IMG/VR virus record: IMGVR_UViG_3300036797_000054
Span: 32,001-96,000 of that record
Reading direction: 5' to 3' (one strand)
Source of the DNA: a virus
Lineage: Duplodnaviria; Caudoviricetes
Length of the DNA: 64,000 nt
The notes under the pieces are model-generated. The model did not search any database. It saw nothing but the letters and a program-made list of their open reading frames with translations, and had not been told where the DNA came from. The translations under genes were made by a program, and so were the position numbers. Shown here piece after piece: positions 55,868 to 55,936 of the stretch. Position 1 is the stretch's first letter, and every line of letters starts with the position of its first letter.

Positions 55868-55936
55868 ATGGCGTTGATCGTTCGCCAGCGGACGTGGGGA
55901 TGGTCGCGGACGTGGGAATGGTCGCGCCAGGCGTAG
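55868..55936 (+). CDS. Trp-rich 22-aa leaderless mini-ORF (MALIVRQRTWGWSRTWEWSRQA)
   Basis: TAGCCT-N7-ATG context identical over 16 nt to that of ORF 36738; in-frame 18-nt tandem repeat. Confidence 0.45.
   Translation: MALIVRQRTWGWSRTWEWSRQA

What the first reader, a model, noticed from the sequence alone, without database searches (positions are those of the whole stretch)
55868..55936. Trp-rich leaderless mini-ORF fused to the permuted tRNA domain
Seen: TAGCCTcttctgcATG (identical 16-mer also precedes ORF 36738) opens MALIVRQRTWGWSRTWEWSRQA. It has four TGG codons built from an in-frame 18-nt tandem repeat, and its TAG lies inside the 5' strand of the 14-bp helix closing the tRNA mimic. 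Established: Trp-codon clusters in leader peptides sense charged tRNA-Trp, and mini-gene translation generates peptidyl-tRNA drop-off handled by Pth. Inference: ribosome position on this ORF could switch folding or processing of the downstream RNAs, making an mRNA-plus-tRNA hybrid sensor of translation stress.
Basis: partly seen in the sequence, partly recalled or inferred. Interest (0 to 1): 0.7.

Follow-up and report, generated by a model that had tools for sequence, protein, structure and literature searches.

The report
Chance reading frame over Y-RNA leader
The 22-codon tryptophan-rich frame is really there, but it most likely just overlies the promoter start and folded 5' leader of a phage Y-RNA-like/tRNA gene cluster and is not a translated tryptophan or stress sensor.

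Summary
The "permuted tRNA" is a YrlA-type Y-RNA-like element (Rfam RF02553, 41.2 bits, below threshold like other phage copies).

The 16-mer fits the phage's own leaderless promoter class, TANNNT-N6/7-RTG. That class has 30 hits on the + strand and 2 on the - strand, and 13 start long ORFs exactly at the RTG. A 5'-terminal AUG is therefore plausible.

The frame itself does not look coding:
- 79% of ATGs here open at least 22 codons.
- The four TGG come from one duplicated 18-mer.
- Codon usage sits at the 2nd percentile of real genes.
- Nucleotides 2-62 form a hairpin of -34.3 kcal/mol (z -3.9) that pairs bases 2-7, including the UG of the AUG. Fourteen real leaderless genes average -18.3.

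No terminator, Trp-related gene or coupled ORF follows. No homologue of the leader exists in any collection searched. Nine other phage YrlA-like elements have no such ORF.

Adventitious translation cannot be excluded. A sensor role is unsupported. The scan has noted phage Y-RNA-like tRNA mimics before on other DNA.

The parts
55855..55860 (+). -10-like hexamer TAGCCT of a leaderless-type promoter, preceded by GCGCGG as in other promoters of this phage
   Evidence: TANNNT-N6/7-RTG has 30 hits on the + strand and 2 on the - strand. 13 of the + hits start long ORFs exactly at the RTG. Markov expectation is 14.9 +/- 4.1.
55855..55870 (+). 16-mer TAGCCTCTTCTGCATG, identical to 36725-36740
   Evidence: The copy at 36725 precedes a 67-codon ORF with gene-like codon usage (LLR 0.62).
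55868..55936 (+). 22-codon frame (4 TGG). Judged incidental; adventitious leaderless translation is not excluded.
   Evidence: Codon LLR is 0.02 per codon against 0.93 +/- 0.41 for real in-frame windows, and frame +2 scores higher.
55890..55925 (+). two 18-nt tandem units, GGACGTGGGRATGGTCGC. The second unit forms the 3' strand of the leader hairpin and the first forms its apical part.
   Evidence: No third copy exists in the 122.7-kb record at up to 3 mismatches.
55869..55929 (+). 5' leader hairpin. It pairs nucleotides 2-62 of the inferred transcript and abuts the Y-RNA closing helix with no gap.
   Evidence: -34.3 kcal/mol, z -3.92, 0 of 200 shuffles fold as well. 14 real leaderless genes average -18.3 +/- 4.9.
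55921..56029 (+). YrlA-type Y-RNA-like element. It has a 14-bp closing helix (55930-55943 with 56003-56016), a T arm, a 7-bp acceptor-like stem closed by the 5-nt loop GCACA, and a D arm.
   Evidence: Rfam RF02553 41.2 bits, E 1.2e-7, model positions 1-114. Fold -69.2 kcal/mol, z -4.7.
56048..56136 (+). tRNA-like gene with an expanded anticodon region
   Evidence: RF00005 41.6 bits. ARAGORN does not call it.
56137..56169 (+). second promoter-like site, TTGACA-N11-TATGCT-N7-GTG. Its GTG opens a 57-codon frame straight across the next tRNA gene.
   Evidence: It serves as an internal control showing that an RTG at +1 in front of an RNA gene gives an open frame by chance.
56185..56280 (+). tRNA (anticodon loop CUUUCAA) with a 25-nt D-loop insert
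   Evidence: RF00005 61.9 bits. A relative of this tRNA precedes the PTH2 gene in all eight loci examined.
56282..56324 (+). G+C-rich hairpin without a T-run, overlapping the Shine-Dalgarno sequence of the next gene
   Evidence: Read. The terminator scan does not call it.
56333..56713 (+). PTH2-type peptidyl-tRNA hydrolase gene
   Evidence: Pfam PF01981, E 7e-6, 26.7 bits against a cut-off of 23. 26 homologues were found.

Best explanation
Positions 55855-55936 hold the promoter and the structured 5' leader of a phage non-coding RNA operon. The operon runs YrlA-type Y-RNA-like element, then tRNA-like gene, then tRNA with a D-loop insert, and perhaps on into the PTH2 gene. TAGCCT is the -10 element of the phage's leaderless-type promoter class, and transcription starts at or next to A55868 (inferred). 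Nucleotides 2-62 of the transcript fold into a stable hairpin made from a unique 5' segment and the second copy of an 18-nt duplication. This hairpin stacks directly on the 14-bp helix that closes the tRNA-mimic module. It probably serves as a protective or structural 5' stem-loop of the Y-RNA precursor (inferred). RNase P cleavage at the next tRNA-like gene would release an RNA of about 180 nt (inferred from M. smegmatis YrlA and tRNA processing, PMC4201824). The ATG belongs to the promoter's initiation region. The frame stays open for 22 codons because stops are rare at 66% GC. The four TGG are the G-rich hairpin strand read in one of three frames and then duplicated. Some adventitious leaderless translation is possible, but I judge it to have no sensing role.
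For: Promoter class. Y-RNA identity. Other phage YrlA-like elements score in the same sub-threshold range (36-39 bits, Bxz1 32.5), including copies beside Ro/TROVE genes. Leader hairpin: z -3.92, -34.3 against -18.3 +/- 4.9 kcal/mol, and the first 12 nt are 0.20 unpaired against 0.51 in 14 real leaderless genes. The hairpin is contiguous with the closing helix. Coding tests: LLR 0.02 per codon, which is the 2.3 percentile of real windows; frame +2 scores higher; a 49-codon frame reads across the whole Y RNA; 79% of ATGs open at least 22 codons. Internal control: TATGCT-N7-GTG at 56154 opens 57 codons across a tRNA gene. Contrast: the 17-codon leaderless uORF at 50948 has gene-like codon usage (LLR 0.82) and an ATGA overlap with the methyltransferase start, whereas this frame has neither. 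Family level: 9 other phage YrlA-like elements have no ATG-started ORF ending in the 5' strand.
Against: There is no transcript data, so the start site, the hairpin and the processing are all inferred. The AUG sits in exactly the context that starts 13 real genes here. In M. tuberculosis, transcripts that begin with a 5' RUG are mostly translated, including 268 short novel ORFs (PMC9094748). In the first 40 nt the AUG is accessible (0.87 unpaired), so a ribosome could load before the hairpin is transcribed. The codon score is higher than 99% of out-of-frame windows, and GC3 is 86%. With no homologue, neither the hairpin nor the frame could be tested by covariation or conservation.
Confidence: 0.65

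Rival explanations
1. First reader's model. A leaderless sORF is translated, and ribosomes pausing at the four Trp codons, or the act of translation itself, control folding or processing of the Y-RNA-like and tRNA-like RNAs. This would make an mRNA-plus-tRNA-mimic sensor of Trp or translation stress.
For: The promoter context is leaderless. The stop codon lies inside the closing helix. A ribosome on codons 16-22 would have to melt that helix (inference). When the first 18 nt are withheld, the Y stem can extend, pairing CAGCGG at 55886 with CCGCUG at 56036, so alternative folds do exist. There is precedent in the polycysteine leaderless sORF attenuators of mycobacteria (bioRxiv 10.1101/834739).
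Against: Codon usage is non-coding-like. The Trp codons come from one duplication. The hairpin form is about 12 kcal/mol better than the extended-stem form. There is no terminator, no sequestered ribosome-binding site, and no coupled ORF; the next ORF starts 397 nt downstream, beyond three RNA genes. Nothing downstream relates to Trp. Other phage YrlA-like elements have no such ORF.
Confidence: 0.05
2. The frame is translated adventitiously, because any 5'-terminal AUG is translated in hosts that use leaderless mRNAs. The peptide and the act of translation have no selected function.
For: PMC9094748 reports pervasive translation of leaderless sORFs without signs of purifying selection. The promoter context here is the same as for real leaderless genes. 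The AUG is accessible in the first 40 nt.
Against: The host is unknown. The completed hairpin pairs bases 2-7. There is no expression data of any kind.
Confidence: 0.22
3. The two 18-bp direct repeats at +23 to +58 are DNA binding sites for a regulator that controls this promoter. The open frame is again incidental.
For: The repeat is nearly perfect and tandem, immediately downstream of the inferred start site.
Against: No further copy exists anywhere in the 122.7-kb record at up to 3 mismatches, not even at the twin promoter at 36725. The 18-bp spacing puts the two sites on different faces of the helix. The repeat is fully accounted for as a hairpin strand.
Confidence: 0.05
4. The frame encodes a functional 22-residue Trp/Arg-rich peptide.
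For: The composition only: 4 W and 4 R in 22 residues, against 1.65% Trp in the phage's proteins.
Against: The codon-usage, duplication and hairpin arguments all apply as above. There is no homologue.
Confidence: 0.03

Closest known systems
YrlA-type bacterial and mycobacteriophage Y RNAs (Rfam RF02553; Chen et al. 2014, PMC4201824)
   Same: T arm and D arm with tRNA-like conserved bases. An acceptor-like stem closed by a loop between them. The 5' and 3' ends paired into a long stem. A 7-bp acceptor stem as in M. smegmatis YrlA, which is cut by RNase P and receives CCA. Location beside tRNA genes, as for other phage copies.
   Different: The score is below the gathering threshold (41.2 against 69). 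There is no GNCGAAN0-1G motif. No Ro60/Rsr gene (TROVE or DUF2828) is present in the 80%-complete record. The closing helix is a perfect 14-bp duplex. An extra 62-nt 5' hairpin carries the open frame.
Leaderless short ORFs of mycobacteria, including polycysteine attenuators (PMC4633059, listed but not opened; PMC9094748; bioRxiv 10.1101/834739)
   Same: A -10 TANNNT placed 6-7 nt before an RTG that would be the 5' end of the transcript. A short ORF rich in one amino acid. RNA structure downstream.
   Different: In the attenuators, the stalled ribosome frees the ribosome-binding site of a downstream gene of the cognate pathway. Here the next features are RNA genes, nothing relates to Trp, the frame has non-coding codon usage, and no conservation can be shown.
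Classical trp-type leader peptide attenuation (own knowledge)
   Same: A short frame with several Trp codons ahead of structured RNA.
   Different: There is no terminator with a U-tract and no trp genes. The only competing folds are the leader hairpin and the extended Y stem, which are not a terminator/antiterminator pair. The Trp codons are interspersed at positions 10, 12, 16 and 18, not adjacent.
Lambda bar minigenes and Pth (own knowledge)
   Same: A phage-borne very short frame and a link to peptidyl-tRNA hydrolase.
   Different: As I recall, bar minigenes are 2-3 codons long and act through drop-off. This frame has 22 codons, and the neighbouring hydrolase is PTH2-type and conserved with a tRNA, not with the frame.

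Membership tests
Amino-acid-sensing leader peptide attenuator (trpL type) | Short ORF with a cluster of codons for the sensed amino acid | tested here: met
   4 TGG in 22 codons. They are two TGG within one 18-nt unit that was duplicated.
Amino-acid-sensing leader peptide attenuator (trpL type) | Mutually exclusive antiterminator and terminator hairpins, or ribosome-binding-site sequestration, downstream of the ORF | tested here: not met
   No terminator-like site in 55600-56500. The ORF runs into the Y-RNA closing helix. The next ORF starts 397 nt downstream.
Amino-acid-sensing leader peptide attenuator (trpL type) | Controlled genes belong to the pathway of the sensed amino acid | tested here: not met
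   Downstream lie a YrlA-like RNA, a tRNA-like gene, a tRNA with loop CUUUCAA, and PTH2.
Amino-acid-sensing leader peptide attenuator (trpL type) | ORF, frame and regulatory codons conserved in homologues | not testable with these tools
   No homologue of the leader was found in IMG/VR, in the loci around PTH2 relatives drawn from the protein database (JGI, ENA, NCBI, Logan) and from the metagenome contigs, or in sequencing runs.
Leaderless sORF (actinobacterial type) | -10 TANNNT 6-8 nt upstream of an RTG | tested here: met
   TAGCCT-N7-ATG. The class is strand-specific and starts 13 long ORFs.
Leaderless sORF (actinobacterial type) | Transcript 5' end mapped at the RTG, and ribosome occupancy | not testable with these tools
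   No RNA run holds this DNA. Only the source soil metagenome does.
Leaderless sORF (actinobacterial type) | Coding-like codon usage or purifying selection, for a functional sORF | tested here: not met
   LLR 0.02 per codon, the 2.3 percentile of real in-frame windows. Frame +2 scores higher.
YrlA-type Y RNA (RF02553) | tRNA-like T and D arms flanking a closed acceptor-like stem, with the ends paired in a long stem | tested here: met
YrlA-type Y RNA (RF02553) | Rfam gathering score (69 bits) | tested here: not met
   41.2 bits. Other phage copies also fall below: Bxz1 beside the Ro gene scores 32.5, and five IMG/VR copies score 35.8-39.0, one of them on a contig that also encodes a TROVE protein.
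YrlA-type Y RNA (RF02553) | GNCGAAN0-1G motif near the 5' end, the presumed Rsr contact (PMC4201824) | tested here: not met
   CGAA does not occur anywhere in 55868-55948 (read).
YrlA-type Y RNA (RF02553) | Encoded near a Ro60/Rsr gene | tested here: not met
   No TROVE (PF05731) and no DUF2828 (PF11443) in the 122.7-kb record, which is 80% complete. A complete 144.8-kb phage with a YrlA-like element also lacks TROVE.
YrlA-type Y RNA (RF02553) | Binds Rsr/Ro60 | not testable with these tools
   Needs co-immunoprecipitation. The host is unknown.
bar-type minigene | Frame of only a few codons causing peptidyl-tRNA drop-off | tested here: not met
   22 codons. The size criterion is from my own knowledge.

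The most novel reading that the evidence does not exclude
A leaderless, Trp-rich short ORF is really translated, and ribosome traffic over its last codons transiently melts the closing helix of a phage Y-RNA-like tRNA mimic. The maturation or protein binding of that RNA, and of the two tRNA-like RNAs behind it, would then be coupled to the translational state of the infected cell.
Probability: 0.05. Interest if true: 0.75.

Novelty: new member of a known kind. Interest (0 to 1): 0.25.

Why it matters
Read as a sensor, the finding would have been a new way of coupling translation to the maturation of a tRNA-mimicking RNA. The evidence instead points to an ordinary explanation: an open frame that a GC-rich structured RNA leader produces by chance behind a promoter whose start site happens to read ATG. 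The useful by-products concern the phage itself. This uncultured soil phage uses leaderless gene starts widely. Its Y-RNA-like element lies directly downstream of one such promoter-like site and carries an extra 5' hairpin. It has no Ro60 gene in the DNA held. The analysis also offers a warning for annotating high-GC phages, because several long frames lie open across clear RNA genes here.

Tried and rejected
Homologue searches for a conservation test all came back empty.
- blastn of 55300-56800 against INPHARED phages: no match.
- Protein-anchored scans of IMG/VR with PTH2, with the upstream HExxH protein, and with a PTH2 alignment: no relatives.
- The metagenome scan gave 7 PTH2 loci, of which I inspected three, and eight loci came from the protein database. 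None of the eleven inspected carries a YrlA-like element or a similar leader.
- The upstream protein has no homologue among 5.8 billion proteins.
- The 21-mer of the T arm hit only an ordinary tRNA in an unrelated low-GC giant phage.
- The 17-mer of the repeat hit four unrelated sequences with no tRNA-like context, taken as chance matches.
- Genome-contig scans with the PTH2 alignment and with a published M. smegmatis YrlA primer found nothing. I therefore could not align the M. smegmatis YrlA itself. The 11-mer GGAATGGTCGC that this primer shares with repeat unit 2 remains an unexplained lead.

Sequencing runs: no RNA holder is listed. Only the probable source soil run holds the stretch, and a second soil run matched only short fragments at 80-90% likeness, chiefly at the conserved tRNA T-arm region (56228-56271).

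The E. coli-type sigma-70 promoter and terminator scan found nothing, as expected for a high-GC host. The sub-threshold Rfam Twister-sister hit (25 bits) overlaps the YrlA hit and was treated as noise.

I did not search with the 22-residue peptide. It is below the length limits of the profile and atlas tools, and gene callers rarely call products that short.

Full report
**Setting**

The window is bases 32001-96000 of a 122.7-kb, 66.5% GC IMG/VR virus record. Only a soil metagenome run, probably its source, holds this stretch. In the region examined the likely genes lie on the + strand.

The stretch 55837-56332 lies between an orphan HExxH protein gene (55339-55836) and a PTH2-type peptidyl-tRNA hydrolase gene (56333-56713; Pfam PF01981, E 7e-6).

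**The observation**

- The 16-mer TAGCCTCTTCTGCATG occurs at 36725 and 55855 and nowhere else.
- ATG 55868 opens a 22-codon frame that ends at TAG 55934-55936.
- Two 18-nt units differing at one base lie at 55890-55907 and 55908-55925.
- The TAG lies in the 5' strand of a 14-bp helix, 55930-55943 paired with 56003-56016.

**What the tRNA mimic is**

Rfam's YrlA (Y RNA-like) model matches 55921-56029 end to end at 41.2 bits, E 1.2e-7. The fold has z -4.7.

The fold shows a T arm, a 7-bp acceptor-like stem closed by the 5-nt loop GCACA, a D arm, and the closing helix. Chen et al. (PMC4201824) describe this layout for bacterial and mycobacteriophage YrlA. They also report that the 7-bp acceptor form of M. 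smegmatis YrlA is cut by RNase P and receives CCA.

The score is below Rfam's threshold of 69 bits, but other phage copies are too.
- The Bxz1 copy beside its Ro gene scores 32.5 bits.
- Five copies that I pulled from IMG/VR with a topology pattern score 35.8-39.0 bits.
- One of those five lies on a contig that encodes a TROVE protein.

Three defining features of the family are not met. The GNCGAAN0-1G motif is absent (read). No TROVE or DUF2828 gene is present in the record, which is 80% complete. The score is sub-threshold. I therefore call it YrlA-like, not a proven member.

**The promoter**

TANNNT-N6/7-RTG occurs 30 times on the + strand and twice on the - strand. First-order Markov simulations give 14.9 +/- 4.1. 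Thirteen of the + strand hits coincide exactly with the first codon of an ORF of at least 60 codons that has almost no open frame upstream.

Nine sites carry the narrower form TAGNCT, all on the + strand, and six of them start ORFs of 67-841 codons. The phage therefore uses leaderless-type gene starts widely, and 55855 belongs to that class. The twin site at 36725 starts a 67-codon ORF with gene-like codon usage.

A transcript beginning at or next to A55868 is the best inference, although no start site has been mapped.

**Is the frame a gene?**

Four tests say probably not.

1. Length carries no information, because 79% of all + strand ATGs open at least 22 codons. A 49-codon frame also runs across the entire Y RNA. 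The promoter-like TATGCT-N7-GTG at 56154 opens 57 codons across a tRNA gene.
2. The codon-usage log-likelihood ratio is 0.02 per codon. Real in-frame 22-codon windows give 0.93 +/- 0.41, which puts this frame at the 2.3 percentile, and frame +2 scores higher. For comparison, ORF 36738 scores 0.62, PTH2 scores 1.05, and the frame across the tRNA scores -0.20.
3. The Trp richness is two TGG spaced 9 nt apart within one unit that was duplicated. The single difference between the units (GGA against GAA) is non-synonymous, and it turns a G-U pair into an A-U pair in the hairpin (read).
4. Nucleotides 2-62 of the inferred transcript form a hairpin of -34.3 kcal/mol, z -3.92, matched by 0 of 200 shuffles. 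The first 62 nt of 14 real leaderless genes of this phage average -18.3 +/- 4.9 kcal/mol. Their first 12 nt are 0.51 unpaired, against 0.20 here.

The hairpin ends at 55929 and the closing helix starts at 55930. The leader therefore looks like an added stem-loop on the Y-RNA precursor.

**Is there a switch?**

If the first 18 nt are withheld, the Y stem can extend outward by pairing CAGCGG at 55886 with CCGCUG at 56036. That form is about 12 kcal/mol worse than the hairpin form.

No terminator follows. No ribosome-binding site is sequestered, and no ORF is coupled to the frame.

The phage does contain a leaderless short ORF that looks functional. It runs for 17 codons from 50948, has gene-like codon usage, and overlaps the DNA methyltransferase start in an ATGA. 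The 55868 frame has none of these properties.

**Comparative evidence**

No homologue of the leader exists in any collection I could reach (see Tried and rejected).

PTH2 relatives at 60-70% identity keep only the pair "tRNA with a D-loop insert plus PTH2". They have no YrlA-like element and no similar leader.

At family level, nine other phage YrlA-like elements with closed acceptor stems have no ATG-started ORF ending in the 5' strand. They show only three unrelated GTG or TTG frames.

**Verdict**

My best explanation, at 0.65, is a promoter plus a structured 5' leader of a phage Y-RNA-like and tRNA operon, with an incidental open frame.

In M. tuberculosis, transcripts that begin with a 5' RUG are mostly translated, and most such short ORFs show no sign of selection (PMC9094748). 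I therefore give adventitious translation 0.22. The sensor model gets 0.05.

The closest precedent for the sensor idea is the polycysteine leaderless sORF attenuators (bioRxiv 10.1101/834739). These work by freeing the ribosome-binding site of a cognate-pathway gene, and that arrangement is absent here.

Noticed in passing
window 50935-51001: A second leaderless-type site, TAGGCT-N7-ATG, opens a 17-codon frame with gene-like codon usage (LLR 0.82). Its TGA overlaps the ATG of the 542-residue DNA methyltransferase ORF (ATGA at 50998). This looks like a translationally coupled leaderless uORF.
   Followed up: partly
L008:2499-2503, L009:952-956, L011:2499-2503, L016:1956-1961, L018:49-54: In five relatives the PTH2 reading frame starts (TTG or ATG) one base after the 3' end of the preceding tRNA. 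In L016 the called start is too far downstream, because the conserved N-terminus is encoded from the TTG. tRNA 3' processing would leave a nearly leaderless PTH2 mRNA.
   Followed up: partly
window 56185-56280; L008, L009, L010, L011, L012, L013, L016, L017: A tRNA with acceptor GCGCC(C/G)G immediately precedes PTH2 in every locus examined. It usually has the anticodon loop CUUUCAA and often a D-loop insert of variable length and sequence. This is a conserved tRNA-PTH2 pair. In L010, L011 and L012 the anticodon region is itself altered.
   Followed up: partly
window 56082-56092: The expanded anticodon region of the tRNA-like gene holds GGCUCCGAAGG. This resembles the Ro60 contact motifs GGUCCGA and GNCGAAN0-1G quoted in PMC4201824. 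The motif that the YrlA-like element lacks may sit in its neighbour.
   Followed up: no
window 56137-56169: TTGACA-N11-TATGCT-N7-GTG begins directly after the tRNA-like gene and lies 16 nt before the tRNA. It may be a separate promoter for the tRNA-PTH2 pair.
   Followed up: no
window 53205-53238 and 56911-56944: Two leaderless gene starts share GTTGACG-N-CGCGGGTAGAYT-N7-ATG, with the TTGACG only 7 nt from the -10 hexamer. Several others have ATAGAC 9 nt upstream of the -10. The phage seems to have at least two promoter sub-classes with unusually short spacing.
   Followed up: no
L057:1755-1874, L058:1093-1209, L078:4298-4358, L104:5565-5691, L109:279-385, L134, L145, L083: At least eight IMG/VR phage contigs, mostly low-GC, carry YrlA-like elements with closed acceptor stems, many inside tRNA arrays. 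A complete 144.8-kb phage (L078) has one but no TROVE gene. L109 holds the string ACAGCAA that earlier notes of this scan call a 'handle'; the window's element does not.
   Followed up: partly
PMC4201824 methods; window 55914-55924: A published primer for the 5' half of M. smegmatis YrlA contains GGAATGGTCGC, identical to 11 nt of repeat unit 2. The repeat units resemble the variable-loop and T-stem 5' side of actinobacterial YrlA or tRNA (compare AGGTCGCCCG of the real T arm at 55944-55953). The duplication may derive from that segment.
   Followed up: no
L083:4738-5051: A phage contig with a YrlA-like element also carries a tmRNA gene (RF00023, 111.7 bits) in the same tRNA cluster.
   Followed up: no
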